NCBI GenBank assembly: GCA_963702895.1
Contig: OY969767.1
Location: 2,528,001-2,592,000 of the forward strand
From: an uncultured Elusimicrobia bacterium
GTDB taxonomy: Bacteria; Elusimicrobiota; Elusimicrobia; 2-01-FULL-59-12
DNA: 64,000 bases
Direction: 5' to 3'
In this document: one piece after another, positions 23 to 15,696 of the stretch
Layout of the letters: every line of letters begins with the position of its first letter
Position numbering within the stretch: position 1 is the first letter of the stretch
The notes under the pieces: model-generated
What the model saw: only the letters and a program-made list of their open reading frames with translations
Database searches by the model: none
What the model was told of the DNA's origin: nothing
Position numbers and translations under genes: made by a program

Positions 23-3000
23 TCATTCGCGTGTCGCCATCTTCAATAGTGCCTTGATCTCGTAATTCATGCTTTCTACTCCGAAAGGGGCTTCATCCTT
101 GAACGCGCCGCGAACGTAGAATGGGCCTTCCGTTCGTTCTCCGTCCACCAGAACGATGGCGAGCGCAAATCGGTCCGGCTGGTTGAACCCGGTCAGAATC
201 TCGTTCTTCGTGACCGTTACGGTTTGCGCGTCCTTGGCGCGGCCTTTAACCTCAACAAACTTCAAGTCACCGCTTTTCAATTTGGAAGTGATGTCCCAGC
301 CGCATTTCTGTTTGGAAACGTCTTGAGGAGTGTTGTTCAGCGATAGTTCATGGCGCATGACCGCTTCCATCGCCATCCGTTCGATCTTCTCGCGGACGGC
401 AGGGTCCTGCGTCATCAGATCACCAGACCCCATTTTCTGGCGCAAGAGGCCCGCCGGAATGACCAGAGCGCCGCCCACCACACGCGGAGTGGCAGATATG
501 ACGTGGCGACGGGCTTCCAAGTCGGTTTGCCGTTCTTTGAGCCTCTGGTCCAGCTCCTCAGCCCGTTTGCGGGCATTGTCTGGTTGAAGGCGGGGTTGCT
601 TGCCCAAAGAAACCTGTTCCTGCAACTGGGCGGCACGCTTCTGCCAGTATGTGATTTCCTTGACCAAGCGCTCCTGAACGGCCTGCAAGGTCGCATCAAT
701 TAGCCGCTCTTGCCTCGATTGGACCTCACGGAGGTGCTCTGGCACTATGGTTTGCGCGGCATGGGCAATAATCAATGGCTCAAGGTCTTTGTGTAGCCAT
801 TGCTCTTGCAAAATGTCCTTGATGTGCTCACGTTCCTCATCCTTGAGCGGTCGATAATCCAGATAGGGGGCATAGCCACCTTGCGCCACTTGCCCCTTCC
901 GATCCACCTGCACAAACTGCAATCGCTCAGAAATCGGTCTTTGCTTCCCGTGTCGGTCCACCGCCCCATCACGAATCTGGTGTTCAAGGATAAACATGAC
1001 TCTCGGCTCCACTCCATCGTCGGCGCTGTCCACCAGAACGGTTCCGCGTTTAAGCAGGTCGCGGTACTTCTCGACAACGAGATCGAGTACTGAATCCATT
1101 AAGGGATGACCGGGGCATATTAAAACGGCTGGGGGCTTGCCGTTTTGTCGTATCTTGCTTTTCTCAAAACAGATACGTTCGTACTTTGGCGTAACCGGAT
1201 GCCCGCGTCCGATGACTTTGTCTCTATTGCGGATTACTGATGGGACGTGGGTGATCTCATAGCGACCTGATTCGCGTTGATGGATCTGCCCACCAAAGCA
1301 GGAAAATCCTTCGAGGAAGAATGCGCGGATAAAGTGTGGTTGGAGTTTCCGGGCTTCGGCCTTTTCCATATCGTCTTTGAGTGCGAAGACTTTGCTCGAA
1401 TCCATGTGCTCGGTTGCCAATGCGACGCGATCCATAATATCGCGCAACCGTTCCCGGTCAAGTGCCCCTTCGACCTTCTGATGCAGTCTGGCCTTGGCTT
1501 CCGGTGTTTCTCCTTCCCGGATGGCCTCGATAAGCAACTCGCGTAATGCAACTCCGCTAAAGACTTCACCCAGAATGTCGAATACACGGCCACCAAGCGC
1601 CTGCCGCTCGATATCGAGCTTCTGCAATAGCCTCTCGAACACATCGCCTTCGCGTGTTTCCTTCGCCACCATGTTCCAGCAATGACAGATTTCTTCCTGC
1701 CCGATGCGATGGATGCGGCCAAAACGCTGTTCGAGACGGTTGGCGTTCCACGGAAGGTCATAATTTATCAGCAGGTTGGCCCGTTGAAGATTGATACCTT
1801 CACCTGCCGCATCGGTGGCGACAAGGATCAAAACGTCTTTCTGGTTTGTGAACATCTCTTGGGTTTTGCGCCTCTCATCCCGATTCATGCCGCCATGAAT
1901 CGTCACAACCGCATCGTCGTTACCCATCAAGCCTTTGATCTTGTCCACCAGATAGCGCAGAGTATCTCGATGCTCGGTAAAAACGATCAGCTTGCGGCGG
2001 TTGCCGAACGAATCCTTCATCTCCGGGGTGTCTTGGAGCAGGCGGGAGAGTTCTTCCCATTTTTTATCCTCTCCCGATACTCGGACTTGATGTGCCTGCT
2101 TTTCCAGCCTCTTTAGGCTCTCGATCTCTCCTCCCAGCTCCGTGATGGTCTGAGCCGCTGTCGCCTGATCGACGACCTTTTCTTCGAGCGCCTCGACCTC
2201 AGAGTCCGGCGCGTCATCCAGAAAGTCGGCTATATCTTCTTCGGAGAAAGCCGGAAGATCAGGCTTTGCTACTGGGACGGTCTGCCCGCGTTTGCTGGAT
2301 AGCTCCTCTAACCGACCCTCCAAATTCTTGCGACGACGTTCGAGAGAGCGGAAGATCGCCTCCGGGGAAGATGCCAGTCGCCGTTGAAGCGTAGTCAATG
2401 CAAACCCGACCGTACCTCGACGATTGGTATCGAGTTTGTCGGCGCGGTCCATTTCGCCACGGACGTAGCTGGTCACCGCCTCATAAAGAGCCGATTCCTG
2501 TGCTGAGAGCTTGTAATTGGCCGTGTAGGCTTTGCGTTCCGGGAAAAGGGGTGTTCCTTCGAATGTGAGTAGCTCCTCCTTAATCATGCGACGCATCAGG
2601 TTAGTCACATCAGGTTGAACGTCTTTCTCTCTCGGTTTCCCGTAGAAACGATCTGGGTCCAAGAGAGCCATGAACAGATGGAAGTCCTCCGGCTTGCCGT
2701 TGTGCGGTGTGGCTGTCATCAGCAAGAGATGGCGTGTGATCCGGTCAAGCAATTTGCCGAGGTTGTACCGCTTCGTCGCCTTGATCTCGTTGCCGTAATA
2801 GGTCGCGGACATCTTGTGTGCTTCATCAACCACGATCAGGTCCCAGTCACTGTGGCTGAGACGAGCTTCTAATTCTTCGTCGCGGCTTAGTTGATCCAGA
2901 CGGCAGATTAGAAGGCTGTAACGCGGATCAGCGAAGATTTCTCCGGCGTGGCTGGAATTGTCCAGTTCCCGGCCAAAGATGTCGAAGACAAGGCCGAACT

Positions 3001-3517
3001 TCTCCTCAAGCTCATCCTGCCATTGTTCGACAAGCATCCCCGGCGCGATGATGAGACATCGCTTCACGTCTCCCCGGAGCATCAATTCCCGGATGAACAG
3101 CCCAGCCATGATGGTTTTGCCCGCGCCGGGGTCATCGGCTAAAAGGAATCGCAGGGGTTGTTTGGGAAGCATGGCATCATAGACAGCGGTAATCTGATGC
3201 GGCAAAGCCCGTACGTTGCTGGTATGAATCGCCATCAGTGGGTCAAACAGGTGGGCAAGCTGAATCCGTTGGGCTTCGGCGACAAGCCGGAAAGTCTGAC
3301 CATCCCCGTCAAAGGTCCACGGTCGACCTCCCATGGCGACAGAAAGCTTGTCCTCGTCCTGTCGGAACAGCATCCTCTCGCCCGTTCCACCAGCATCGTC
3401 ACGGTAGAACACACTGACCGCGTCGGTCCCGACCGGATTGACAGCAACGACCTTAGCCGCTTGATGCGGCAGAATCCCCCAGACAAGGGTTTCAGGTTTC
3501 AGTTCTTCGAGTTTCAT
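23..3517 (-). CDS. SNF2/RapA-like helicase with C-terminal DUF3883 (NOV_C-like) nuclease domain, typical of DUF499/DUF1156 restriction-like loci
   Basis: Walker A LLADDPGAGKT, DEAH box, TATPH, helicase-C QRFGRIHRIGQ, C-terminal GWDITS...FVEVKGR motif. Confidence 0.85.
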   Translation of the reverse strand: MKLEELKPETLVWGILPHQAAKVVAVNPVGTDAVSVFYRDDAGGTGERMLFRQDEDKLSVAMGGRPWTFDGDGQTFRLVAEAQRIQLAHLFDPLMAIHTSNVRALPHQITAVYDAMLPKQPLRFLLADDPGAGKTIMAGLFIRELMLRGDVKRCLIIAPGMLVEQWQDELEEKFGLVFDIFGRELDNSSHAGEIFADPRYSLLICRLDQLSRDEELEARLSHSDWDLIVVDEAHKMSATYYGNEIKATKRYNLGKLLDRITRHLLLMTATPHNGKPEDFHLFMALLDPDRFYGKPREKDVQPDVTNLMRRMIKEELLTFEGTPLFPERKAYTANYKLSAQESALYEAVTSYVRGEMDRADKLDTNRRGTVGFALTTLQRRLASSPEAIFRSLERRRKNLEGRLEELSSKRGQTVPVAKPDLPAFSEEDIADFLDDAPDSEVEALEEKVVDQATAAQTITELGGEIESLKRLEKQAHQVRVSGEDKKWEELSRLLQDTPEMKDSFGNRRKLIVFTEHRDTLRYLVDKIKGLMGNDDAVVTIHGGMNRDERRKTQEMFTNQKDVLILVATDAAGEGINLQRANLLINYDLPWNANRLEQRFGRIHRIGQEEICHCWNMVAKETREGDVFERLLQKLDIERQALGGRVFDILGEVFSGVALRELLIEAIREGETPEAKARLHQKVEGALDRERLRDIMDRVALATEHMDSSKVFALKDDMEKAEARKLQPHFIRAFFLEGFSCFGGQIHQRESGRYEITHVPSVIRNRDKVIGRGHPVTPKYERICFEKSKIRQNGKPPAVLICPGHPLMDSVLDLVVEKYRDLLKRGTVLVDSADDGVEPRVMFILEHQIRDGAVDRHGKQRPISERLQFVQVDRKGQVAQGGYAPYLDYRPLKDEEREHIKDILQEQWLHKDLEPLIIAHAAQTIVPEHLREVQSRQERLIDATLQAVQERLVKEITYWQKRAAQLQEQVSLGKQPRLQPDNARKRAEELDQRLKERQTDLEARRHVISATPRVVGGALVIPAGLLRQKMGSGDLMTQDPAVREKIERMAMEAVMRHELSLNNTPQDVSKQKCGWDITSKLKSGDLKFVEVKGRAKDAQTVTVTKNEILTGFNQPDRFALAIVLVDGERTEGPFYVRGAFKDEAPFGVESMNYEIKALLKMATRE

Positions 3518-3661: not shown

Positions 3662-4270
3662 TCACAATTGAGTTTCTTTTCTAGCTGAATGTAACAATCC
3701 CAGATGACTCAAGGCTGTTTCAACTGCTTCCGTGGCTTCTGATGCAGAGCAACAGAAGACTTCTCCAAATGGAGCTTGCTTATCGTGACGCTCCGCTAAG
3801 ATTTTATGCGTTAGGTATTCAACCTTCTCGACACCTTCCGTATAAAAAGCGGCCATAAATTGCCACTCTCCCACTGGTCGAGGGTAGTGACGATACCTTT
3901 CTATTCGCTTTTCAAGAGTATTCACTATCCGAACGGCTGAATTTCTTTCACTACCGGAAAGTTGGCCGAGACGACTAATAATATTCTCTCGATAGGACTC
4001 AGCAAGCGCCACATCTTTTTCAAGGGGTAACGCGTTGCCCCCCGAACAACCTCTGCCACTTTTAACATGTTGAGGAACAAGCCCCATGATGTTAAGTAAA
4101 CGACCGCCACAAACCTGACAAGTGACCTTTCGCTCTAGCCACATATCATTGAAAGTTCGAAGCCGATCCGCTACATCATTAACTCCAATAGCAGTCATTC
4201 CGATTTTCACGCGCTGAACTGCGGAGTTTTCAAAAATATATACAGCACCGTGGTAGAGAAAATCGCGCAT
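3662..4270 (-). CDS. GIY-YIG / T5orf172-like nuclease family protein
   Basis: GAVYIFEN...VKIGMT...DRL N-terminus, VEYLTHKIL...GEVF C-terminus, CQVC insert. Confidence 0.7.
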   Translation of the reverse strand: MRDFLYHGAVYIFENSAVQRVKIGMTAIGVNDVADRLRTFNDMWLERKVTCQVCGGRLLNIMGLVPQHVKSGRGCSGGNALPLEKDVALAESYRENIISRLGQLSGSERNSAVRIVNTLEKRIERYRHYPRPVGEWQFMAAFYTEGVEKVEYLTHKILAERHDKQAPFGEVFCCSASEATEAVETALSHLGLLHSARKETQL

Positions 4271-4322
4271 TTAACGTTAAGCTATCCCGAGTGACAACAT
4301 AGCGATTCCGCCAACAAAAGAA

Positions 4323-4412
4323 TGGCGGAGGGTGAGGGATTCGAACCCCCGATAAGCTTTCGCCTATAACGCTTTTCAAGAGCGTCGCCTTCAACCGCTC
4401 GGCCAACCCTCC
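4323..4412 (-). tRNA. tRNA-Ser(TGA), intact, CCA encoded
   Basis: GGAGGGTTGGCCGAGCGG...ACGCT CTTGAAA AGCGT, long variable arm, GGTTCGAATCC, ends CCCTCCGCCA. Confidence 0.95.
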
Positions 4413-4425
4413 AAATCTATTCGAC

Positions 4426-5178
4426 TCAGGTCGCATGGGCGACATTTCGCCATGCCCCATCTTTCAACTGCACATAATGCATAACGATCTGTTCAGTTGC
4501 GTTTTGAATGTCTATGGTCAGATCAAAAATATCCTTCCATAAATCATCAATTTTCATTTCGGTTAAATCTCCGAGGACCTGCTGTGCCGCGCCATCCGCA
4601 AAATGGTATCTGGTCGAACCAGCCGTGGCTCCCCTTGATATATAGGGCGTTCTCTTCTCCTCTGGTTCAACTAAATCAAAACGATTCCTAAAGCCTCTCA
4701 ATAACTCGGCGGGGTCGTAATGGAAAGTGACTTTATTTCGAATTCGTAACAGGACCTTATATGTCCTGCTGTTGGCCTTCCCACCAACAGCGAACGCGAC
4801 AAATTCTTTCCACTTGGCTCGCGCTCGCTTATTCATTTTGTCTACTATCTTTTTCATGAGCGGATGTTTCAGCGCATTTTCGTTGTCGACAATGTAGTCA
4901 ACGACGCTAAAGATCAGGCTAATATATTGACGCTGTAGGTGATAAATCAGGCCCCCATATTCACCCCATTCGGGAGTCGCCGCCCACTCGCCCTTAGGTG
5001 TCTGCTTTTTCAAAGTCTCCCATGCCGCCGCAACATCAGCTAAGTCATTATGGGCCAGAGCAAAACTAAGCACCAAACCAGCGACCCCGCTCTCATCTGG
5101 ATCAATCTTCGTAAAGACCTGAGCACTAAAACTCTCCAAGTCGGCCAGCTTGAATTCTCTGATTTCACCGATGCTCAC
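4426..5178 (-). CDS. Hypothetical protein, probable HEPN-fold RNase
   Basis: 250 aa, helical character, RNKVTFH matches the Rx4-6H HEPN motif. Confidence 0.5.
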   Translation of the reverse strand: MSIGEIREFKLADLESFSAQVFTKIDPDESGVAGLVLSFALAHNDLADVAAAWETLKKQTPKGEWAATPEWGEYGGLIYHLQRQYISLIFSVVDYIVDNENALKHPLMKKIVDKMNKRARAKWKEFVAFAVGGKANSRTYKVLLRIRNKVTFHYDPAELLRGFRNRFDLVEPEEKRTPYISRGATAGSTRYHFADGAAQQVLGDLTEMKIDDLWKDIFDLTIDIQNATEQIVMHYVQLKDGAWRNVAHAT

Positions 5179-5294
5179 ATTTACAACTCCCTACGGCCTC
5201 ATTTACAACCTGCCCATAAAAACAGGGCTATCTCTGTCATCCATCGTATCACTCGCTCCGTCGAACAGGTGCGGTAGGTTGGCCGGTTTATTGG

Positions 5295-5334
5295 TTTTCA
5301 AGACAGGCTCCTTAAGCCGCTCGGACATCCCTCC
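5295..5334 (-). pseudogene. tRNA-Ser(TGA) 5' half relic
   Basis: GGAGGGATGTCCGAGCGGCTTAAGGAGCCTGTCTTGAAAA, then non-tRNA sequence. Confidence 0.85.
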
Positions 5335-5360
5335 GCTGCCAATCCTTCCCTTGCGCAACG

Positions 5361-5378
5361 CCACTCTCCCAACCCTCC
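5361..5378 (-). pseudogene. tRNA-Ser 5' fragment (nt 1-18)
   Basis: GGAGGGTTGGGAGAGTGG. Confidence 0.6.
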
Positions 5379-5471
5379 GCTGATCGCTTTCCTCATTTTG
5401 TCACTACGTCCAACCTTCCTTGACTCTAACAGGTTGGGACAATCCTCCCGCTCTATCATGGCGGGAGGACG

Positions 5472-5724
5472 CCTTCGGTACCCTTACGGGCACAGCTGTT
5501 TTCCCCTCCACTACATTGTTGGAGGGCCCGCCTAAGCCGGAGTGGCGGGAAGACATCCGGATCCCTCCTGCCCATTCCTTAAGGAGGAGGACCGCGCGCC
5601 AGTTACGCATCGGCGCGAGGTAAACCTCCGCCACATCCGACACACGTCAGTCGGATCCGCCCGAAGTGTGGCGGACGACAGGCGGAGAGCGCCTGTCGTG
5701 TGGCGCTCACTCTCCCAAGCCTCC
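5472..5724 (-). pseudogene. tRNA-Ser(TGA) relic interrupted by twin-hairpin insertions
   Basis: Joining 5724-5708, 5625-5621, 5562-5550 and 5503-5472 gives GGAGGCTTGGGAGAGTGGTTTAATCCGGATGTCTTGAAAACAGCTGTGCCCGTAAGGGTACCGAAGG. Confidence 0.8.
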
Positions 5725-5739
5725 GAAACGTGGATAAGA

Positions 5740-6093
5740 TCATTTATCTGCTTTCGGTGGGGGCACGGTATGCTCAAGGCATTGGATAAGGGATGGAAGA
5801 TCCTTCATGACTGTGTCCCAAACAATCTCAAGATCAATATCATCATAGTCATGAATCAAAACGCTGCGAATACCGATCATCTGCTGCCAGGGAATATCCG
5901 CCAGAGCCGCCCGCGTCTCGGGCGAAATGCGACGAGACGCTTCCCCAATAACTTCCAGCCGCCGTATAACAGCATCCTGGCATTGCGAATCGGACAGAAA
6001 GGTTTCGTAAGAATGATGGACCAGATACTGGCGGGCTCCTCGAGCCGCGTTCAGGATATCGAGCAGATACCCCGCATCACGCGGCGGCAGCAT
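5740..6093 (-). CDS. HepT-like ribonuclease toxin (DUF86/HEPN)
   Basis: DAVIRRLEVIGEA...IPWQQMIGIRSVLIHDY. Confidence 0.9.
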   Translation of the reverse strand: MLPPRDAGYLLDILNAARGARQYLVHHSYETFLSDSQCQDAVIRRLEVIGEASRRISPETRAALADIPWQQMIGIRSVLIHDYDDIDLEIVWDTVMKDLPSLIQCLEHTVPPPKADK

Positions 6094-6394
6094 AGAGAGA
6101 CTGCGCTGTGGAGAGGATTTCAGTCCGTCGCAAATAATTGGCGCTTCGCTCCAGCCCTCGACGGCTAACCAAATCGACAGGACGCTGGAACAACCTGCTC
6201 AATTCCTCTTGCATCTGGACGAAATCGAAGAGTGTAGGGTGCGACTGTGGCTTGAATGTCACTAACAAATCGATATCGCTCGTATCGGAAAAATCCGGAC
6301 GCAAAGCAGACCCAAAAAGAAATAGTTCCTCGATTCCCTTTTGACGGCAAAACTGAGCAAGACGCTCACGATCAATGTTTATCTTCGGGCTCAT
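6077..6394 (-). CDS. Minimal nucleotidyltransferase (MNT) antitoxin
   Basis: LFGSALR...SDIDLLV...VDLVS; overlaps the DUF86 gene; start taken at MSPKIN. Confidence 0.9.
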   Translation of the reverse strand: MSPKINIDRERLAQFCRQKGIEELFLFGSALRPDFSDTSDIDLLVTFKPQSHPTLFDFVQMQEELSRLFQRPVDLVSRRGLERSANYLRRTEILSTAQSLYAAAA

Positions 6395-6555
6395 AGCTTC
6401 TAGATTATATGTCCTGTACCCACAGCTTTCCACAAAAGGTTTAGACCTTCATACGCCCGACTTTACAACAACAGGACACAAAAGTGTAAAACTCGGTACA
6501 ACTCCGTACAAGTCCTTTGAATGAAAAACTGCGCGACGTTTGGCCGTAGGGTAAC

Positions 6556-6594
6556 TTTCAAGAGCATCGCCCTATACCACTCGGCCATCCCTCC
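6556..6594 (-). pseudogene. tRNA-Ser(TGA) 5' half relic
   Basis: GGAGGGATGGCCGAGTGGTATAGGGCGATGCTCTTGAAA, then non-tRNA sequence. Confidence 0.85.
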
Positions 6595-6632
6595 TAAATC
6601 AGTATGCAGAGCATCCATCGACGCCACTGATT

Positions 6633-7190
6633 TCATTTGACGATCGGTTCATAACGGATCGTCGTTGTGCTCCATTTCACGAAATCCATTCTAATTCGGT
6701 CGACTTTCTCTCCGCCATCCAGATAATACCCTCTCGGATTCGATAACTTGCCGCCTTTAAAATCATACGTTCCACCTGCACATGTCCCTGAGTGCGAGTA
6801 TGTTACAGGAGCGCCGTTTAATTTCTCGAGTTCCTTCAGACTTGTCCCTAGCGTGATACCGTTTTGTAACTGCCATAAGCTCTTATCCCCGGAAATAGTG
6901 AATGATACGAGCATGGCATTCTCGCCCCATTTATCGATTTCGACCTCGGCTTTCTTTAATTTATCATCCGGAAAGATTACTATTCCGGGTTCTGTCTCTT
7001 CAGGACCAACTGCGGCACCAATTACGTTCTTCTTGCCTAGGCGTTCTTCTAATACGCTCACAGAGGTCTGGGCCGTAATCCATCCTGCACGTATGCCCGG
7101 CACAAGCTTCCAGTCATCCTGTTCAGCGGTACTGATCGAACAAAGAAACATCAGTATGCTGCCGATACTGGCAGTTTTACGAAGTCCCAT
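6633..7190 (-). CDS. Hypothetical secreted protein
   Basis: GGAGG RBS before MGLRKTASIG, signal-peptide-like N-terminus, GITLGTSLKELEKLNG motif. Confidence 0.6.
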   Translation of the reverse strand: MGLRKTASIGSILMFLCSISTAEQDDWKLVPGIRAGWITAQTSVSVLEERLGKKNVIGAAVGPEETEPGIVIFPDDKLKKAEVEIDKWGENAMLVSFTISGDKSLWQLQNGITLGTSLKELEKLNGAPVTYSHSGTCAGGTYDFKGGKLSNPRGYYLDGGEKVDRIRMDFVKWSTTTIRYEPIVK

Positions 7191-7556
7191 AATCCCTCCT
7201 ATTCGTGCGGTGAGACTATATGCAATTAAGCTTGCCATATAGACGACCGTTGACAACTTCATTGACGGCCACACCATCTATTTCAGGCTATGCCCGCCAA
7301 CCTCTGTCTCACTCACCCTGTCGTCCCGGTCCCCCATTTAATTTAACCGGCCGGGACGTACCGACTAAGATTCGCTCGCCGGAGGCTCGCTTCACGGTCG
7401 AACGGTACGAACAGGTGCGGCCGCCTTATCGGCCCTCCGAAGCCTTGGCGAAGGAGGGTAGGTCGCCAGACTTCCGGCGACTTCCGCCACAAGACGGGCG
7501 GACTCGACGGCTGTGTGTCGAGCACCGGACGGCTTGGCGAGTTGGCTGGTTTATTG

Positions 7557-7683
7557 GTTTTCCCACCTTCGCAACAACGCGCTGCCGCGCCGCTACGGTG
7601 GGCAAGCAAGACATCCAGATCCCTCCTTCCCATTCTTTAAGGAGGAGGGCCGCGCGCCAGTTACGCATCGGCGCGAGGTAAAC
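7557..7683 (-). pseudogene. tRNA-Ser(TGA) D-loop-to-anticodon relic with two insertions
   Basis: GTTTA|58-bp insert near-identical to 5563-5620|ATCTGGATGTCTT|45-bp insert|GAAAAC. Confidence 0.7.
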
Positions 7684-8035
7684 CTCCGCGTGATAGTCCT
7701 TTGATCTGACGATGGAGGGCAGGAATTTCATGCGCAATGACATCCCAAATGATGTGCACATCGAGCCCAAAATATTCGTGGGCAATCACATCGCGCAGTC
7801 CGGCAATTTTCCGCCAATCGACTTCCGGGTATTTATCCTTTAAGGATGGAGAGAGTCGCTTGACCGCCTCACCGATGATCATCAGATTGTGGAACACGGC
7901 CTGTGATGTCTTTGGGTCCGCGAAGAAAGCTTCTTTGGAAAAGCCTGCGGAAAACTCAAGAATCCTTTCGCAGGATTGTTGGATGTCTTTTAAGAACAGC
8001 GCGTCTTCACGCGACACGGCGGGCGTCTTCTTCAA
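7661..8035 (-). CDS. HepT-like ribonuclease toxin (DUF86/HEPN); the 3' end runs into the tRNA relic
   Basis: AVFHNLMIIGEAVK...VDWRKIAGLRDVIAHEYFG; true start may be the GTG near 8014. Confidence 0.9.
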   Translation of the reverse strand: MKKTPAVSREDALFLKDIQQSCERILEFSAGFSKEAFFADPKTSQAVFHNLMIIGEAVKRLSPSLKDKYPEVDWRKIAGLRDVIAHEYFGLDVHIIWDVIAHEIPALHRQIKGLSRGGLPRADA

Positions 8036-8318
8036 TGAAGGGCCGAATTTCAGGACGAATAGCCGGGCGAGTCAGCAGATCAACGGGGCATCCGAGCAGG
8101 TCCTCCAGATAGAACTTGAGCTTCATGTATTGGTCATAGGTCGGCGGTTTGATGAAATCCACAAGCAGATCCAGGTCACTGTCTGAGCGTTCGTCGCCGC
8201 GAGCAACGGACCCAAAGACATGAAGGGCGGCCACCCCAAAATCCTTCAGGTCTGGTTGAATGTTGTTCATGCGGCTCTTAACCTGTGCAAGATTCACAAT
8301 GGCCCCATTATACTCCAT
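8007..8318 (-). CDS. Minimal nucleotidyltransferase (MNT) antitoxin
   Basis: VFGSVARG...SDLDLLVDF...PVDLLT; start uncertain. Confidence 0.9.
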   Translation of the reverse strand: MEYNGAIVNLAQVKSRMNNIQPDLKDFGVAALHVFGSVARGDERSDSDLDLLVDFIKPPTYDQYMKLKFYLEDLLGCPVDLLTRPAIRPEIRPFIEEDARRVA

Positions 8319-8334
8319 CCCTCATCCAGCCACG

Positions 8335-8367
8335 CACTCGGTACGCCCACCACACACCCACCCCTCC
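8335..8367 (-). pseudogene. tRNA-Ser 5' fragment with a short insert remnant
   Basis: GGAGGGGTGG|16 nt|CCGAGTG. Confidence 0.5.
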
Positions 8368-8407
8368 GCTCACGACCCTTCTTGTGCGCCATGCACCGAT
8401 GCACGAC

Positions 8408-8818
8408 TTACCCTTTGATGCGGCCTGCCCAGCTTTCAACCTTGAGTGAGCTGCGATCTGCCAGCCGGTCAAAGTCTCTGTCCGCGTGCAGAAGCGTAAG
8501 CCCATTCTGTAAAGCTTTAAAGGCAATGAGAAGATCCATCGATTTCGCGGACACTCCTTTTCGTGCCAGCCGTGCCCCCCACTCCGCCGCTTCGCTCCAA
8601 TCCGTTTCTAAAAACGGCAATACCTGCAAGCTCCGCAACCGGTGCTTCAGATGCTCCGCTTCCTTGGGGGTCCGGACACCCCGAAGAATCTCAAACAGGA
8701 TGGGGGGGGTGGTCGCTGCCTGATTGTCCAGCACGAGCGAGCCCACGCGATCTTTCAACAAGTCATGCGGCTTGGGACCCAGAACAAATAACCAGGCTGA
8801 TGTGTCGATTAAGAACAA
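8408..8818 (-). CDS. vapC: VapC PIN-domain toxin
   Basis: LIDTSAW, ILFEIL, SMDLLIA, LHADRDF. Confidence 0.9.
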   Translation of the reverse strand: MFLIDTSAWLFVLGPKPHDLLKDRVGSLVLDNQAATTPPILFEILRGVRTPKEAEHLKHRLRSLQVLPFLETDWSEAAEWGARLARKGVSAKSMDLLIAFKALQNGLTLLHADRDFDRLADRSSLKVESWAGRIKG

Positions 8819-8821
8819 GTG

Positions 8822-9019
8822 TCAGGCCCGCGAGCGCGAGAGCTTGCTGGTCGTCCAGTTGAGTCGGTATCGGCTAAACTCCTTGACGAACGTCTTACGC
8901 TCGATCTCCGCAAGGATGTTCCGGAGACCCGCCTCAAGGGCTTCTCTCTGGGAAGCCGCTTTCATGGCGCGCATCGCTTGAACCAAAAGGCGTTCATCGA
9001 TATTGGTCGTAATTTTCAT
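8822..9019 (-). CDS. vapB: VapB antitoxin
   Basis: MKITTNIDERLL...AM; AGGAGG RBS; directly upstream of vapC. Confidence 0.85.
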   Translation of the reverse strand: MKITTNIDERLLVQAMRAMKAASQREALEAGLRNILAEIERKTFVKEFSRYRLNWTTSKLSRSRA

Positions 9020-9071
9020 TTCATCCTCCTGATTCACTTGAGTATGGCTATACTTGCCATAAAGTATATGG

Positions 9072-9097
9072 CATCTGTTGCCATATTTCAACAGATG
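9072..9097. promoter_or_regulatory. Palindrome upstream of vapBC, probable autoregulatory operator
   Basis: CATCTGTTG...CAACAGATG inverted repeat. Confidence 0.45.
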
Positions 9098-9102
9098 GGC
9101 GC

Positions 9103-9181
9103 CCACTCGGCCTGAGCGCTCTACGTTTATGGCGCTCAGGTGCCGCCTCCTTTGAGAAATAGGATGCGGCGCCATCTCTCC
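9103..9181 (-). pseudogene. tRNA-Ser 5' fragment with a 61-bp twin-hairpin insertion
   Basis: GGAGAGATGG|9171-9111 two abutting hairpins|CCGAGTGG. Confidence 0.7.
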
Positions 9182-9240
9182 AAGATTTTGGCCCGTTCAA
9201 TGTAATCTAGAGGCCATGGTGCATGGACAATTTTTATTGT

Positions 9241-9654
9241 TTATCGAGAGGGCGCAATGAGCGCGATGACAACTCCGGCGAGCAAACATTGAACCATGCC
9301 CCCCACAAACCAGCCCACGGCCATCGAGACCGGAATCGGCACCATAAAATACGTCCCCAGGCTCATGCCCGAGGCCATCAGAAGCCCGATGAGCGCGCCA
9401 AACCGCAAACCCTGTCCGACACGCGCTTTTTGAGGTTCGAAGCCTTTCAGATAAAGAACGGGCAGTATGGCGGCATCGATGAGATACATCACCCACATGG
9501 TCCACATCAGCGCTTGCATCTCTGCCATCGGCCGCCATACGCTCGCTGTCGCTTCATACGCGCTTTTCATGAGAACACCGTGAATCACGAAATCCGTTAC
9601 AAAAAGAACCCCCGCCACCGCCGCCACCGCCGCCAACCATCGTTTCATCGTCAT
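9241..9654 (-). CDS. Small membrane protein with about 4 TM segments (DUF1761-like)
   Basis: Hydrophobic segments, GLRFGALIG; AGGAG RBS. Confidence 0.65.
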   Translation of the reverse strand: MTMKRWLAAVAAVAGVLFVTDFVIHGVLMKSAYEATASVWRPMAEMQALMWTMWVMYLIDAAILPVLYLKGFEPQKARVGQGLRFGALIGLLMASGMSLGTYFMVPIPVSMAVGWFVGGMVQCLLAGVVIALIAPSR

Positions 9655-9673
9655 GTCAAGTTCCTCCTTTTCT

Positions 9674-10057
9674 CTAAATATTGATCGATCCCCCGTTTGC
9701 GCGATTTGGGAATGATACTTCTAAGACGACGCACCCCACGTCCGTTTGGAACGGGCCATGAACCTCTCCGGGTGGCCGACTTGCATAGTGTCCGCTCTCA
9801 AGCCAAAGGTCAAAGGCTTTGTCATAAAGTCTGCCACTGACTACAAATATTTCTTCAGGATAATCGTGGCTCTTTCCCCCCAATGGAGTCGTGTCAGCGC
9901 CAGGGAGAAAACGTGTCAGCCGCGTATACTCTCCCGTTTCCTTGTCGATGCTAAGGGTCACCTCCTCGGCCATTCCCTCAATACCTTGGACGGGGGACCA
10001 ACGAGCGTTTTGAGCCGGTCTCAAGGAGTTCCAGTAAGCGGTTGTTGATTTCGACAT
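9674..10057 (-). CDS. ChrR-like cupin domain protein
   Basis: TRLTRFLPG, HDYPEEIFVVSG, YASRPPGEVHGPF. Confidence 0.85.
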   Translation of the reverse strand: MSKSTTAYWNSLRPAQNARWSPVQGIEGMAEEVTLSIDKETGEYTRLTRFLPGADTTPLGGKSHDYPEEIFVVSGRLYDKAFDLWLESGHYASRPPGEVHGPFQTDVGCVVLEVSFPNRANGGSINI

Positions 10058-10236
10058 GCCGTTTTACTCTTGATCAAAATGTCCTGGGTCAAACCCAGGA
10101 CTTCCCAACTCCATACCACTCCGTTTACAACCTACCTGGGAAACTCCTTACCACATCGTCAACGCCCGACACACGTCCGTCGGATCCGCCCGAAGTGTGG
10201 CGGACGACGGGCGGAGAGCGCCTGGTGTCTGGCGCT

Positions 10237-10353
10237 CGCGCGGCCCCGTCTCTTGCATCGTTCGTCCCTGGCGAACTTATTGGTCGGGACCGTCCCGGCT
10301 ATTATCGCTCACAATCGCGAGCGTGATAAAGAGGATAGGACGGCCACCCCTCC
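10237..10353 (-). pseudogene. tRNA-Ser 5' fragment with hairpin insertions
   Basis: GGAGGGGTGG|insert|CCGCGCG, followed by the same D-loop insert as at 5626-5707. Confidence 0.65.
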
Positions 10354-10355
10354 GC

Positions 10356-10631
10356 TCACGACCCTTCCTGGTTTTCGATCGCCTCGAGCGACTGGGCCAC
10401 GGACGCATTGTCGCTGGGCAGGCAAATCACGCGCTCGCGGCCAACCTCGGTCCGCAAAACGGTCAGGACCTCGTCGAGCCAGGACGGGCCGACGGCCAGG
10501 ACCCCGCTGAAGTCGAGCTCGATCCGGTCCCCCGGAGCGGGTTTGAAATAGGCCTTGATGGCGAGCCCCGCTTCCCGGCCGGATGGCCGAGAGGTCAGGA
10601 TTTCCCCGAATTTACGGACTTCGACTTTCAT
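10356..10631 (-). CDS. STAS-like domain protein (DUF4325)
   Basis: LTSRPSGRE...IELDFSGV...PSWLDE. Confidence 0.8.
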   Translation of the reverse strand: MKVEVRKFGEILTSRPSGREAGLAIKAYFKPAPGDRIELDFSGVLAVGPSWLDEVLTVLRTEVGRERVICLPSDNASVAQSLEAIENQEGS

Positions 10632-11461
10632 GCGATCCTCCCGTCCGCTATTTCCGCTTCGGCGGGCCCGGCGGCGTTTAACTTATCGCCGCAGGGCCAG
10701 AGCATCAGCGTGACCGTGCCCTTCGTATGATGAAACCGTTTATCCAGCAGCTTGGCGCACCGCTCCCCTTGTTCTCCGTAGGAAACGCGGCCTGTCCCGG
10801 AAATGCAGGCGATGCCCCCGCCCGGAGTCTTCACCATGGTGTTTTTGACAAACTTTAATCCATTCCCCCGCCGCTCCGGCGCCCGGCCGGAAATGATCGT
10901 GTCGAACGCCGCGGTCAAAGCGGCCTGCTCATCCGGCAGTTCGGGATGGACTTTCATCAACGATTGATAGACGCCCTGGCCCCGGTCGGCGATGCAAATC
11001 CAAAGATGACGCCCGGTGACTTGTGATTCAAACCAGCAGCCGGGAACATCCCGCCATTGTCCGAGGTTGTGGTCGAACGAGTTGTTTCCGACTTCGCCCG
11101 CCGTGGAAATCACGAGCGGCAGAAGATTCTCGGGCAGCCCGTTCCTGAGAAAGGATTTTAAATGGGGCAGCCGGGCGGTGAAAATTTCCCGCGTTTCGCT
11201 GACCGACGCCTCCGGGCTTTGGGGCGCCGCCGGGGCGTTCGCCCAACGCGACGCCGCTTCGAAATCCGGTACCCCGGCCAGCGCGTAATAGACAAGCGGG
11301 GCCGACCCTTTGATCTCAAGAAGCCCCTGCTGGGTCAGAGTACGAAGATGGCGATGAATTACCTGAGGAGAGATTTTCAGGATATTTCGCAACTCAAAAG
11401 GACGGATCTTCCCGCTTTTCTCAATGATTTGAAGTATTTTGCCTCGCGTCTCTGTCTTCAT
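10628..11461 (-). CDS. Winged-HTH plus HATPase_c (anti-sigma-kinase-like) protein
   Basis: N-terminal HTH; EVGNNSFDH, IADRGQGV, RGNGL motifs. Confidence 0.75.
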   Translation of the reverse strand: MKTETRGKILQIIEKSGKIRPFELRNILKISPQVIHRHLRTLTQQGLLEIKGSAPLVYYALAGVPDFEAASRWANAPAAPQSPEASVSETREIFTARLPHLKSFLRNGLPENLLPLVISTAGEVGNNSFDHNLGQWRDVPGCWFESQVTGRHLWICIADRGQGVYQSLMKVHPELPDEQAALTAAFDTIISGRAPERRGNGLKFVKNTMVKTPGGGIACISGTGRVSYGEQGERCAKLLDKRFHHTKGTVTLMLWPCGDKLNAAGPAEAEIADGRIA

Positions 11462-11465
11462 TGTT

Positions 11466-11486
11466 TATAGTTTACAGTAAACTATA
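11466..11486. promoter_or_regulatory. Perfect palindromic operator directly upstream of the HTH-ATPase gene
   Basis: TATAGTTTAC-A-GTAAACTATA. Confidence 0.55.
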
Positions 11487-11585
11487 GACTATAGCAATAT
11501 CAGTTTTTCGCCCCCGCCTTGTAAAGGCTCAACCTTGAATCGGTCGAACGTTCAGGCGTATTGTACAACGGCTGTCGGCTGGCGC

Positions 11586-11849
11586 TTAGCGCCGACGGCA
11601 AGCGAGCCGGATGGCGAGAAACGGCGTGAGGAAAAACACGATCACCAGAATCTTGGCAAGCCCGATCCCGCCGTAGGCCATGAGCGCGCATTCATGCGGC
11701 GTGAGGCCAAACCACGCGCCCTGCCGAACGATGAGATCCCGCGCACCGACAAAGGCCGCAAACCACACGAGGACGAAAAAGAATCCGATGAGGATGCACC
11801 AACCCAAGATCTGGCGGATGGTGTTTAAGGTTCCATGGAGAGGATTCAC
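11586..11849 (-). CDS. Small membrane protein (DUF6868-like)
   Basis: LGWCILI...WFGLT...YGGIGLAKILVIVFFLTPFLAI. Confidence 0.6.
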   Translation of the reverse strand: MNPLHGTLNTIRQILGWCILIGFFFVLVWFAAFVGARDLIVRQGAWFGLTPHECALMAYGGIGLAKILVIVFFLTPFLAIRLACRRR

Positions 11850-12701: not shown

Positions 12702-13292
12702 CTATTCGTCTTCGGCCAGCGCATGGGGATTATGACAAGCGATGCAATCCATTTCCGCCCCTTCAAGAGCCGCATGGGGCTCCAGGCGCCGGAAAGCCCG
12801 GTTGTTGCGGTGGCATTGGAAGCAAAGCTCTTGGATCGTGGGCCGGATCCACAAATGGGGGTTTTTGCCCGCACCGTGTATGGAATGACACGCCAGACAG
12901 GAGATGTCCCGCGTCTCATGGATGCTGCCGACCCATTTGGTCCGCGCGCTCTTCTCGTGGCACTGGAGGCAGAAACGGTTGAGCGCGGCAGAGGACCATT
13001 TCGCCGGTTTGCGGATTTTGGCGAAATCCGGATTCCGTTTGTCCCCTCCCGCGCCGGCATGGAGCGCCCCTGGACCGTGACAGAATTCGCAGGTGTTCTG
13101 GAAATCGATCTTCTTCGCCTTGGGCATGGCCTTGCCGTGCGGGGAATCCTTGAAGCCCGCCATCGACTCATGGCAGGCCAGGCAAGCGTCGGCACCCACC
13201 GACTCCTCACTTGCTGGCGAAGCGGCGCGGGCCCAGCTTGCCGCGAGCAGGGCCACAACACTTAGGATGCGAAACGAGAATGCTTTATTCAT
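12702..13292 (-). CDS. Periplasmic 6-heme cytochrome c (DmsE/MtrA-like, short)
   Basis: Signal peptide; CLACH, CEFCHGPG, CLQCH, CLACH, CFQCH, CIACHNPH. Confidence 0.85.
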   Translation of the reverse strand: MNKAFSFRILSVVALLAASWARAASPASEESVGADACLACHESMAGFKDSPHGKAMPKAKKIDFQNTCEFCHGPGALHAGAGGDKRNPDFAKIRKPAKWSSAALNRFCLQCHEKSARTKWVGSIHETRDISCLACHSIHGAGKNPHLWIRPTIQELCFQCHRNNRAFRRLEPHAALEGAEMDCIACHNPHALAEDE

Positions 13293-13297
13293 TTGTT

Positions 13298-14662
13298 CTA
13301 CCAGTGATAGCGGATGCCAAGGTCCATCGTGGTCACGTGGACATGCTCCTGGGTCGAAAAGGTGGCGCCCGTGTCCAGGTCCCACTGGCGGGACAGTCGC
13401 CAGGTTAAGCGCGCCGATTCGTCATTATTCTTCCACTTTTTCACGTCGTTCGGGCGTCCGCTGTAGCGGAAGTTCCAGTTCAGGCGTGCCATGAGTTTTC
13501 CCTCCCAGAACGGGAGATCACCCGAGAGCCCTCCGCCATAACCGTCCCCTTCGGCGTCGCTCAGGTTAAACCAGGATGCCGTCAAGAGCGCCCCGCGGAG
13601 CTCCAGGAGCCCTTGGCGACTGAGACTGATTCTCCACAGCGTTGGCGAAAGAGACTCTGGCGACTGGAAAAAGGAGACGTCCCCGTCAGCTCGCAAACCC
13701 CAGGGCAACTTTTCGGATCCTCCCACCCAGTAGCGCCAGGAGCCGCTCGTGAAGTTGTCCGGACCTCCTGCGGCCCGCTCGGCCCGGGTGTCGGGACGTT
13801 CATAATGACTCATGCCGCCGCGCAGCTGAAGGAAAGGGGTGACGGGAGAGAGGCCATAGAGATTCAGCTGCGTGAAGCGCGGCCCCCGGTCAAGCACCGC
13901 TCCTCCAGAATCAAAGTTCAGCTTTGCGGAGACGAAAAGATTCATGAAGCGCGTGAGGTCCGCGCGCTGGTCGTAGAGCAGGGCCAGTTCGTCCGCCTCT
14001 CCTTTGTAGAGCGTCTGCAAAAAACCCAGTGTCCCTGTGTAATACATGTTCCCGCGCGTGCCGGCGTGCGCGGTCGCATAGGCGGAGCCCATCACTTCAT
14101 CACCGGAAACGCTCATGTCCTTTCGGTCAGGTCGGGCGCCCGCCGCCGCTCCAACGCGGAAGGTTGGCGAGGCGACCGTCTCGAGCTGTATTCCATCCAA
14201 GTAACCAAGGCTAGGCAGTTCGACTGGGGCCAGGCGACCCAACCGCGTGAAGCCCTCTTTCTCCCCCTTTCGCGAGAACATGAAGCGTCTGAGGTAGAGC
14301 TTGGGATCGCGGAAATCGGTCGAGACCGAACTAACATTCCCGTCACGATAGGAGACATTGCCTGCCCAAACGAAGGACCAGGGACTTCCGCCCAGCCGTT
14401 CGACGCTGCCGTCTGATACGGCGCGACCTGTCCAATAGTGGGACTCAGGCTGATTCACGGAGTGATACAAGTTCCAGAGCTGCAGCGAGCCGTGTGAGAT
14501 ATTGGAGGACCTACTCGTCACGACGCGTGGGGCATAGGGAGCCAAAAGCGGTGTGAACACATCGTTATCTGTTTCCGCAGCAAAGGAGCTCGCGACCGCG
14601 AACAAGATCGGCGCGAACAACCGATAGGCCCTGACTAGTCTGCTTCTCCGTTGCGGTGACAT
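13298..14662 (-). CDS. Putative outer-membrane beta-barrel (porin) partner of the cytochromes
   Basis: Signal-like segment, amphipathic strands, ends DLGIRYHW; start uncertain. Confidence 0.65.
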   Translation of the reverse strand: MSPQRRSRLVRAYRLFAPILFAVASSFAAETDNDVFTPLLAPYAPRVVTSRSSNISHGSLQLWNLYHSVNQPESHYWTGRAVSDGSVERLGGSPWSFVWAGNVSYRDGNVSSVSTDFRDPKLYLRRFMFSRKGEKEGFTRLGRLAPVELPSLGYLDGIQLETVASPTFRVGAAAGARPDRKDMSVSGDEVMGSAYATAHAGTRGNMYYTGTLGFLQTLYKGEADELALLYDQRADLTRFMNLFVSAKLNFDSGGAVLDRGPRFTQLNLYGLSPVTPFLQLRGGMSHYERPDTRAERAAGGPDNFTSGSWRYWVGGSEKLPWGLRADGDVSFFQSPESLSPTLWRISLSRQGLLELRGALLTASWFNLSDAEGDGYGGGLSGDLPFWEGKLMARLNWNFRYSGRPNDVKKWKNNDESARLTWRLSRQWDLDTGATFSTQEHVHVTTMDLGIRYHW

Positions 14663-15696
14663 GAATAGCATGCAGGGGAGCTGTAGGAATAACCGGGGAC
14701 ACCTCCGTGGTGACCATCCGTGACAGGCTTGGCATGGCAACCTAGACAGCTGAAATTCGAGGGTGTCCCACCCTGGTGGCACTGCATACAGGTGGACCCT
14801 TTATGGTTTTGCGGGAAAGGGTGATTGAGGCTTGCGCCCGACCAGCTGCCGCCAGCCGTATGGCAGGAGCCACAGGTTGTCGGAAAGCCCACCGTGCTGT
14901 GGTTTGGCGCGCGGTTATAGTCGTCTGCATGACAGGCGTAACAGTTGGGATTGGGGCCTAGGCCACTGTGATCAAAACGGGCCCCGCTGAAAGACACGGT
15001 GCTGTGGCACTTCCAACAAACCGTCGAATAGCCATTGGCGACATGGCTCGGCCCGCGCTGGAAGTCGACCGCATGGCAGGCATAACACTCCGTGGGCGTC
15101 CCCCGGTAGTCGCCGGCCGCGGCGCGACTGTGACATTCCTCGCATTGAAGCGTGCGGTGACGTCCGGATAGAGGAAATGGCGTCCGGGCATGCACATCAA
15201 TCACATTGTCCACCCGCCAGCTATTTTGATTGTGGCAGCGCAAGCAGTCGAGCCCGTTGGACCCGCGGTGCGGGTCGAGGTGGCACCCGGCACATCCACG
15301 CGCCGTATAACCCTTAACGGGTCCACGATCGTTGTGGCAGCGCAGACACACGGCGGAGGCATGCCCGCCCTCCAGGGCAAAACCGGTTTCCTTTTTATGG
15401 TCAAACCGAAAGTCTTCGCGCAGCACGCCCCAGTTTTTGGCGGTGTGGCAAAGACCACAGTCTTTTGGGAACTGTTTGTGAGAGATGACGGGACCCCATT
15501 TTTTGCGGTCCCAGCGGACCCGTTCATCGGCCGCGCTCGCGTGAAGGGAGAGCCCTACGGAGACCATCGTTAGCACGCCTAGCCACGCCGGCTTTCTGCG
15601 CGCAGGCGACGGGCTTGATACGACGATGGGGAGAATCAGTGGCGGCCTCCTGTAGTATCCGGCAGTAAGTCTATTCGTAATTACAGGAACTTCCAA
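14635..15696 (-). CDS. 12-heme cytochrome c
   Basis: 12 CxxCH motifs, FDH...F.L.G.H repeats; true start probably downstream of 15696. Confidence 0.85.
   Translation of the reverse strand: MEVPVITNRLTAGYYRRPPLILPIVVSSPSPARRKPAWLGVLTMVSVGLSLHASAADERVRWDRKKWGPVISHKQFPKDCGLCHTAKNWGVLREDFRFDHKKETGFALEGGHASAVCLRCHNDRGPVKGYTARGCAGCHLDPHRGSNGLDCLRCHNQNSWRVDNVIDVHARTPFPLSGRHRTLQCEECHSRAAAGDYRGTPTECYACHAVDFQRGPSHVANGYSTVCWKCHSTVSFSGARFDHSGLGPNPNCYACHADDYNRAPNHSTVGFPTTCGSCHTAGGSWSGASLNHPFPQNHKGSTCMQCHQGGTPSNFSCLGCHAKPVTDGHHGGVPGYSYSSPACYSCHRNGEAD

What the first reader, a model, noticed from the sequence alone, without database searches (positions are those of the whole stretch)
4323..11461. Integron-like cassette array delimited by divergent 5' fragments of tRNA-Ser, ending in the intact tRNA
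Seen: seven co-oriented 1-2 gene cassettes. Each ends within about 60 bp of a tRNA-Ser start, or overlaps a relic: 10353 GGAGGGGTGG, 9181 GGAGAGATGG, 8367 GGAGGGGTGG, 7683 (D-loop onward), 6594 GGAGGGATGGCCGAGTGG, 5724 GGAGGCTTGGGAGAGTG, and the intact gene at 4412. Two more relics (5378 GGAGGGTTGGGAGAGTGG, 5334 GGAGGGATGTCCGAGCGG) have no gene directly upstream. The relics are different alleles and stop at different points: the D-loop, the TTGAAA anticodon loop (three times), and the T-stem. No integrase or attC is visible. Known: most tRNA-targeting islands duplicate the 3' end; 5'-half att sites are known (e.g. tycheposons), but those elements typically carry a recombinase. Inference: non-autonomous mini-cassettes are captured serially upstream of the tRNA, each renewing its 5' part, so the tRNA acts as the recombination site of an integron-like array.
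Basis: partly seen in the sequence, partly recalled or inferred. Interest (0 to 1): 0.9.

Follow-up and report, generated by a model that had tools for sequence, protein, structure and literature searches.

The report
Nested tRNA-replacing islands stack gene cassettes
The string of small toxin-antitoxin and defence cassettes in front of this serine tRNA gene is the set of left ends of mobile islands that each cut the resident tRNA gene in two, brought a complete new copy, and were then cut in turn by the next island, so an ordinary phage-type integrase has built an integron-like gene stack.

Summary
The relics are real: 7 of 7 profile hits in 7 kb, against 0 of 772 genome tiles reaching that count. 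They are not integron sites. Four (10353, 7683, 6594, 5334) carry a conserved arm, found in the genome only here, that marks the left junction (attL) of a lambda-like tyrosine-integrase island. The integrase lies 10 kb outside the window. The 'intact' tRNA-Ser(TGA) is island cargo: relic 5334 pairs 12/12 with an orphan 3' half 16.45 kb away and 8/12 with the adjacent gene; relic 6594 matches a second 3' piece behind it. So islands split the tRNA in its anticodon loop, carry a whole replacement near their left end, and the next island lands in that copy; left ends pile up. Four other Elusimicrobiota-type loci share this layout, one with an empty-site relative. Close integrase homologues instead renew the 5' half. 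Hairpin repeats explain the ragged relic ends. Split-plus-replacement is published (tRNA-dependent lysogeny; Pasteurellaceae ICEs) and this scan found it on other DNA (25 notes); the cassette stack and both modes in one integrase clade were not found in my searches. New variant of a known kind.

The parts
23..3517 (-). HmaA helicase; first gene of an Hma defence system in the right part of the newest island. The island continues beyond window position 1: HmaB, HmaC, CHC2 primase-like gene, 78-aa HTH gene, integrase (genome c2518013-2516958), arm repeats, core and orphan tRNA 3' half (loop at genome 2516848), second plugged 3' piece (loop at genome 2516759)
3662..4270 (-). T5orf172-domain gene, island cargo right of the tRNA
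4323..4412 (-). Only tRNA-Ser(TGA) of the genome; island-borne complete copy (own stems 12/12)
4426..5178 (-). 250-aa cargo gene of the newest left module; no Pfam/NCBIfam/PADLOC family; weak HEPN AbiU2-like lead; 45% homologue also ends just before a tRNA-Ser 5' end in L094
5178..5294 (-). attL arm: CCTACCGCAC motif 17 nt after the anticodon loop, then GYYGTAAA-type direct repeats
   Evidence: (E 2.8e-23)
5294..5334 (-). Newest attL: orphan 5' half; 13-bp core 5294-5306 shared with the attR 16,454 bp away
5361..5378 (-). 18-nt 5' stub, same allele class as the intact tRNA of G003; no arm
5472..5724 (-). Dead near-complete tRNA-Ser (G003-type allele) broken by hairpin repeats in the D-loop (two), anticodon and T-arm; not a junction
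5740..6433 (-). MNT-HEPN (HepT-like) toxin-antitoxin pair with its own promoter-like site; follows an arm in L092 and precedes a similar stub in L084 (83% nt)
6439..6555 (-). attL arm, divergent copy
   Evidence: E 1.4e-5
6556..6594 (-). Second attL: orphan 5' half; 16-bp core and 5/5 stem match with the second downstream 3' piece
6633..7190 (-). Probable secreted protein of unknown family (ORF open to 7277)
7243..7692 (-). Third attL, truncated at its 5' end; D-loop, core and arm interrupted by hairpin repeats; 19/20 match to the 5334 junction just after the loop
   Evidence: D2, D7; E 1.7e-6
7661..8318 (-). Second MNT-HEPN pair; HEPN frame runs into the relic
8350..8367 (-). 5' stub without arm; shares a 27-bp leader-plus-stub with 10353
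   Evidence: (D12)
8408..9019 (-). vapBC pair with its own promoter-like site at 9091-9063
9171..9181 (-). 11-nt 5' stub without arm, followed by hairpins
9241..10057 (-). ChrR-like cupin gene and small membrane-protein gene (weak DUF2177)
10103..10353 (-). Outermost attL remnant: 12-nt stub, hairpins, arm-repeat remnant 10184-10103
   Evidence: (E 0.013)
10356..11461 (-). Winged-HTH/ATPase-like plus STAS-like pair; accessory gene pair near tRNA-Ser in 6 relatives' loci, but outside the outermost junction

Best explanation
A family of lambda-like tyrosine-integrase islands recombines in the 7-nt anticodon loop of tRNA-Ser. In the form present here the island does not rebuild the host tRNA; it carries a complete tRNA-Ser(TGA) 0.2-1.2 kb from its left end, behind an arm and a one- or two-gene cargo slot. 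That copy becomes the cell's only UCA-reading tRNA and the next target. Each new island therefore lands inside the previous one and cuts it in two: the short left module (old 5' half, arm, cargo) stays upstream, and the long right part with integrase and the old 3' half is pushed downstream, where it is later lost. Repetition stacks co-oriented left modules, newest next to the working tRNA. REP-like hairpin repeats then insert into dead tRNA loops, cores and arms. Shown by sequence: junction identity of four relics, the complete newest island, two nested levels, the same layout in relatives, an empty site. Inferred: integrase activity, arm binding, order of the outer units, how right parts are lost, essentiality of the island tRNA.
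For: Relic 5334 pairs 12/12 Watson-Crick with the orphan 3' half beyond the integrase and 8/12 with the adjacent tRNA; ARAGORN calls only the first combination a clean tRNA-Ser; core 13 bp. Relic 6594 shares a 16-bp core and 5/5 stem with a second 3' piece 89 bp further out. A profile from 28 relatives' arms hits the 2.72 Mb genome only at four places in the array, plus weakly the integrase leader and the repeats at the integrase end. Integrase keeps R-K-H-R-H-Y; model shows three strands plus helix at the N-terminus (pLDDT 85-89), best fold match lambda integrase. Same layout in G008, G423, L085 (12/12 with distal half in 4 of 4 parsed, own included; cores 7-13 bp) and L089 (distal half has a 2-nt loss; not parsed). 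G028 holds the uninterrupted tRNA with flanks collinear to G423 (89% over 9.5 kb, 80% over 3.8 kb). In 10 of 12 parsed loci the proximal relic mispairs with the adjacent tRNA (8 with two or more mismatches). Left modules of intact islands (197-1244 bp) have the size of array units (about 430-2860 bp between arms).
Against: Matching 3' halves are readable for only two levels; right parts of older islands are missing (one integrase only). Stubs 9181, 8367, 5378 and the dead tRNA 5724 have no arm. The plugged copies 7683 and 5724 share D-loop insertions (95% over 82 nt), which needs an extra duplication. In 2 of 12 parsed loci (and G252, G406) the 5' halves are identical, which is plain 5' renewal. 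Several loci with an incompatible relic show no distal 3' half in 2-9 kb of downstream sequence, and G023 has none genome-wide by exact pattern. Arm-DNA-bind_4 scores only weakly (5 of 7 homologues, best E 0.006, not this protein). No reads, no excision data.
Confidence: 0.75

Rival explanations
1. Dedicated non-autonomous mini-elements (arm, cargo, whole tRNA, core; about 1-2 kb) circulate and are integrated in trans by the island integrase: a tRNA-relay cassette system, closest to the first reader's idea.
For: The second level here is only about 1.35 kb once the newest island is subtracted, bounded by a 16-bp repeat, with 30 bp and no integrase or second arm on its right. L094 and G006 have a decayed 3' half 200-300 bp after the full tRNA. 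The same cargo recurs with the same boundaries in other genomes, once at tRNA-Ser(CGA). 10 of about 31 distinct arm-bearing loci hold two or more arms.
Against: All five well-preserved split-type elements carry an integrase or a fragment of it. Small units lack the second arm that lambda-type attP sites need (established knowledge). Deletion explains the short right parts. No circles or reads.
Confidence: 0.15
2. Tandem accretion of 5'-renewing islands that decayed to cis-mobilisable remnants (CIME model), the adjacent tRNA being the rebuilt host gene.
For: The same integrase clade has complete 5'-renewing members (G252 C1 18.8 kb, G406, G252 C12 at Ser-GCT with stacked junctions, G425 at Cys); identical 5' halves in L041, L044.
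Against: In this array stems differ at each step, and the matching 3' halves lie downstream of the working tRNA.
Confidence: 0.06
3. The stubs are debris of the genome-wide tRNA partial duplications with hairpin repeats, and genes arrived by other routes. Plausible (about even odds) for the arm-less stubs 9181, 8367, 5378 and 5724, not for the array as a whole.
For: Most tRNA genes of this genome have adjacent partial copies; the hairpins belong to families with 46-65 pattern hits; relatives without arrays have such stubs 37-230 bp upstream.
Against: Those duplicates copy the neighbouring allele; four relics here carry the integrase arm found nowhere else in the genome.
Confidence: 0.03
4. A true integron, a serine-recombinase system, or a misassembly.
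For: Cargo resembles integron cargo; one large serine recombinase exists in the genome.
Against: No attC pattern; integron-integrase score 49 vs cut-off 265; the serine recombinase sits at tRNA-Met, where the arm profile has no hit; relics are divergent alleles and independent assemblies show the layout.
Confidence: 0.01

Closest known systems
tRNA-dependent lysogeny of actinobacteriophages (Guerrero-Bustamante and Hatfull 2024, PMC10865867; passages and Discussion read)
   Same: [quoted passage not shown]
   Different: Non-phage primase/defence islands; the replacement tRNA sits next to attL and is re-targeted, giving nests and a cassette stack; the sister form renews the 5' half, not the 3' half.
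Pasteurellaceae ICEs at tRNA-Leu (PMC6028734; passages read)
   Same: 10-13 nt anticodon-loop core, disrupted gene replaced by an intact copy in a non-phage element.
   Different: Conjugative; no stacked left modules described in the passages seen.
tRNA-targeting genomic islands with 5' fragments (Islander, PMC4383910; passages read: 159 of 3919 islands)
   Same: Tyrosine integrase, anticodon-loop site, 5' fragment upstream; the renewing members of this family fit fully.
   Different: Here the island does not restore the target; Islander's rules (integrase between tRNA and fragment, at least 2 kb) would miss these units.
CIME accretion (review PMC5704250) and recombinase-less cassettes beside SCCmec (PMC11470126); passages read
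   Same: att-bounded remnants without recombinase accumulate at one site, often with defence cargo.
   Different: Accretion there is tandem; here it is concentric, and a unit is the severed left end of an island.
Tycheposons (bioRxiv 10.1101/2020.12.28.424599; passages read, supplements closed)
   Same: Integrase-primase elements at tRNAs including Ser(TGA); older material and partial tRNAs pushed away from the tRNA.
   Different: The passages seen describe no whole-tRNA replacement and do not say which half is carried; homology of the integrases was not tested.
Integrons
   Same: Output: co-oriented 1-2-gene cassettes, TA and defence cargo, newest at the active site.
   Different: No IntI, attC or attI; double-strand arm-type integrase; cassettes carry their own promoter-like sites.

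Membership tests
Integron | Integron integrase (IntI) | tested here: not met
   Island integrase 49 bits vs cut-off 265; the other three tyrosine recombinases score best as XerC, XerD (catalytic parts only) and a short generic one
Integron | attC sites | tested here: not met
   No RYYYAAC-N40-130-GTTRRRY on either strand of 4301-11600; simple pattern, no attC covariance model run
Integron | Co-oriented cassette array, newest proximal | tested here: met
tRNA-dependent integration | Tyrosine integrase with arm-type domain and sites | tested here: met
   binding itself not tested
tRNA-dependent integration | Short common core; tRNA not rebuilt at either junction | tested here: met
   13-bp core; ARAGORN finds no tRNA at either junction
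tRNA-dependent integration | Element encodes same-isotype tRNA, host has no other copy | tested here: met
   single Ser(TGA) among 49 tRNA/tmRNA genes, inside the island
tRNA-dependent integration | Element tRNA required for viable integration | not testable with these tools
   inferred from single copy and 3,643 TCA of 43,786 Ser codons in long ORFs (crude count)
tRNA-dependent lysogeny (strict) | Temperate phage | tested here: not met
   Island holds Hma, primase-like, HTH and integrase genes; motif and integrase not found in viral contigs
CIME | Lost recombinase, keeps attL and attR | tested here: inconclusive
   second level has both junctions but a plugged 3' piece and no second arm; outer units show attL only
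CIME | Mobilised in cis by a neighbouring element | not testable with these tools
   no reads listed
Tycheposon | Integrase of the tycheposon clade | not tested
   no comparison with tycheposon integrases was run

The most novel reading that the evidence does not exclude
The left module (arm, cargo slot, whole tRNA, core) is itself a mobile cassette that the island integrase captures in trans, so Elusimicrobiota run an attC-free 'tRNA relay' gene-capture platform: every cassette brings the essential tRNA, which both locks it in and supplies the next landing site, and hairpin insertion into old cores fixes older cassettes.
Probability: 0.2. Interest if true: 0.8.

Novelty: new variant of a known kind. 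Interest (0 to 1): 0.56.

Why it matters
It shows how an ordinary arm-type integrase can build an integron-like stack of defence and TA genes with no attC: put the replacement tRNA next to attL. An essential tRNA gene is then serially swapped for mobile alleles. The Hatfull paper leaves open how tRNA-dependent integration relates to tRNA-rebuilding integration; here both forms sit in one integrase clade (55-66% identity), tRNA-Ser stems vary so much between hosts that a carried 5' half would often not fit, and that gives a testable reason to carry a whole tRNA. Island finders that need an integrase between tRNA and fragment would draw wrong boundaries at such loci.

Tried and rejected
Rfam scan finds only the intact tRNA; relics give no hit. 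Serine-recombinase idea from an apparent inverted repeat between arm and tRNA start: dropped once the tyrosine integrase, shared repeats and attR were found. Leader/trailer complementarity as a record of order: the trailer of the distal 3' half is complementary to the leader of 10353/8367, but only 1 of 20 intact tRNAs scored shows long complementarity (G003 and G009 by eye), so it is only a hint. Integrase tree: split and renewing forms interleave inside one clade (100/99) but one origin of the split form is not rejected (p-AU 0.15; 11 rows, one partial). Viral contigs: no motif match, no integrase relative. Sequencing runs: none was listed; no evidence either way. Y1 transposase as mover of the hairpins: one weak partial hit (E 1e-4), inconclusive. 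Pairing script parsed no full tRNAs; the corrected run parsed 12 of 16 loci (L037, L038, L047, L052 not parsed). Of 16 genomes matching the loose arm pattern, 8 were judged chance because no tRNA half precedes the match. Literature searches for a nested or cassette-stacking version listed none; subscription papers are mostly outside this library and bioRxiv supplements were closed.
Full report
Observation. The window is G000:C1:2528001-2592000 of a single-contig 2.72 Mb genome. The intact tRNA-Ser(TGA) is at c4412-4323 and is the only one among 49 tRNA/tmRNA genes. A profile from 24 relatives' 5' halves picks exactly the 7 GGAG-starting relics in the array; none of 772 genome tiles reaches 7 (threshold set by the weakest relic). 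Cargo: two MNT-HEPN pairs, vapBC, a cupin with a small membrane protein, an HTH/STAS pair and two proteins without family.

What lies outside the window. The genome has four tyrosine recombinases and one large serine recombinase. One tyrosine integrase lies 10 kb before the window start, at the far end of a region with an Hma defence system, a CHC2 primase-like gene and a small HTH gene. Behind it are direct repeats of GYYGTAAA type, then an orphan tRNA-Ser 3' half, then 89 bp further a second, hairpin-broken 3' piece. Relic 5334 pairs with the first in 12 of 12 stem positions and with the adjacent intact gene in 8 of 12; they share a 13-bp core, 16,454 bp apart. Relic 6594 shares a 16-bp core and a 5/5 stem with the second. 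The intact tRNA is therefore inside an island that split the previous gene, which was itself inside an older unit.

The arm. In relatives, orphan 5' halves are followed by CCTACCGCAC exactly 17 nt after the loop and, 60-110 nt on, by two or three of the same repeats. A loose pattern matched 16 of 401 phylum genomes, 8 with a tRNA half in front. A strict pattern matched 11 loci among 185,579 species genomes, all titled as Elusimicrobiota (one under a Candidatus genus name), 17 metagenome loci and no viral contig. A profile of 28 such arms hits this genome at window 5294, 7323, 6547 and 10184, and weakly at the integrase leader and the integrase end. So four relics are attL junctions of this family. 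The integrase keeps its catalytic residues, has a predicted arm-binding N-terminus (mean pLDDT 70) and matches lambda integrase best; it is not an IntI, and no attC pattern is present.

Two forms in one family. Close homologues (57-66% identity; one at 45%) were found in 5 other genomes of 301 searched, and no further ones among 393. In G252 (two elements), G406 and G425 the integrase is followed by a full tRNA whose 5' half the element supplies. In G000, G008 and G423 it is followed by core and 3' half only, and a full tRNA sits near attL; metagenome loci L085 and L089 show the same with integrase fragments. G028, same genus as G423, has the uninterrupted gene in collinear flanks. The forms interleave on a small tree, without statistical rejection of a single origin. 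G000 and G008 keep a few acceptor-stem letters before the attR core, a hint, no more, that the 5' half decayed after a whole tRNA was gained.

Why an array forms. Left modules of intact split-type islands are 197-1244 bp: arm, zero to two genes, tRNA. If the next island targets that tRNA, the module is cut off upstream as a tidy cassette. Arrays of two to five arms occur in 10 of about 31 distinct arm-bearing loci (28 arms built the profile, many contigs are short). In 10 of 12 parsed loci the proximal relic mispairs with the adjacent tRNA; 2 are identical. Of 46 cargo ORFs from relatives, 24 hit Pfam, among them TIR, HNH, Mrr, ParE, Fic, STAND and Schlafen domains. The 250-aa gene, one MNT-HEPN pair and the cupin are followed by tRNA 5' ends in relatives too; the HTH/STAS pair is not (0 of 6). 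How right parts disappear is inferred: recombination between the near-identical T-arm/acceptor ends or between integrase genes, or plain deletion.

Ragged ends. Relic 5724 is a near-complete tRNA of the G003 allele with hairpins in D-loop, anticodon and T-arm; 7683 has hairpins in D-loop, core and arm. The hairpins belong to genome-wide repeat families that also break partial copies beside most other tRNAs. Insertion in the middle of the core recurs in G002, G008, L079 and L081 and should inactivate the site (inference). Stubs 9181, 8367 and 5378 lack an arm and may be such debris.

Comparison and novelty. Split-plus-replacement is published for actinobacteriophages (PMC10865867) and Pasteurellaceae ICEs (PMC6028734); 5'-fragment islands are 159 of 3919 in Islander; accretion of recombinase-less remnants is known. 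This scan has 25 notes on split tRNAs with replacement in other genomes, some nested; I had reached this reading before seeing them (notes). Six literature searches listed no report of concentric nesting producing a cassette stack, or of this family. Verdict: real, mechanism largely resolved, works like an integron in output only, new variant of tRNA-dependent integration. Interest 0.56.

Noticed in passing
L048:8026-8050 (genome +2518026-2518050): The arm motif recurs inverted between the TATAAT box and the ribosome-binding site of the integrase gene, also in G008, G406 and, varied, G425 and G252; candidate operator for the HTH (excisionase-like) protein or the integrase.
   Followed up: partly
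L048:6958-6960: A TAA at the first right-arm repeat ends this integrase 10-40 residues earlier than homologues, whose tails run through the repeats; catalytic residues are upstream of it.
   Followed up: partly
L049:8977-12215 (genome 372976-376214): tRNA-Met(CAT) has a 34-nt 5' half with duplicated promoter 1.49 kb upstream, enclosing a Sel1 gene; a large serine recombinase gene ends inside the tRNA's 3' end on the other strand. No arm match.
   Followed up: partly
G000 genome-wide: Most tRNA genes have adjacent partial 5' or 3' copies broken by two-hairpin repeats.
   Followed up: partly
L070, L071, L072, L073, L074, L075, L076, L078: More distant integrase homologues also end directly before or inside full tRNA genes (Thr, Ser, Val, Gln, Lys), suggesting 5' renewal is common in this phylum; G036 and G419 homologues are followed by a Thr 3' half instead.
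   Followed up: no
window 12702-15696: Multiheme cytochrome c genes and a probable outer-membrane protein gene upstream of the array, inside a further accessory stretch absent at this place in G003.
   Followed up: no
L007:5178-5266: The tRNA-Ser(TGA) of G007 has G instead of A just 3' of the anticodon.
   Followed up: no
L048:5134-6318: Fic gene behind the second 3' piece; homologues lie directly downstream of the tRNA in G006 and inside the G008 island, so it may be right-part cargo of an older island.
   Followed up: partly
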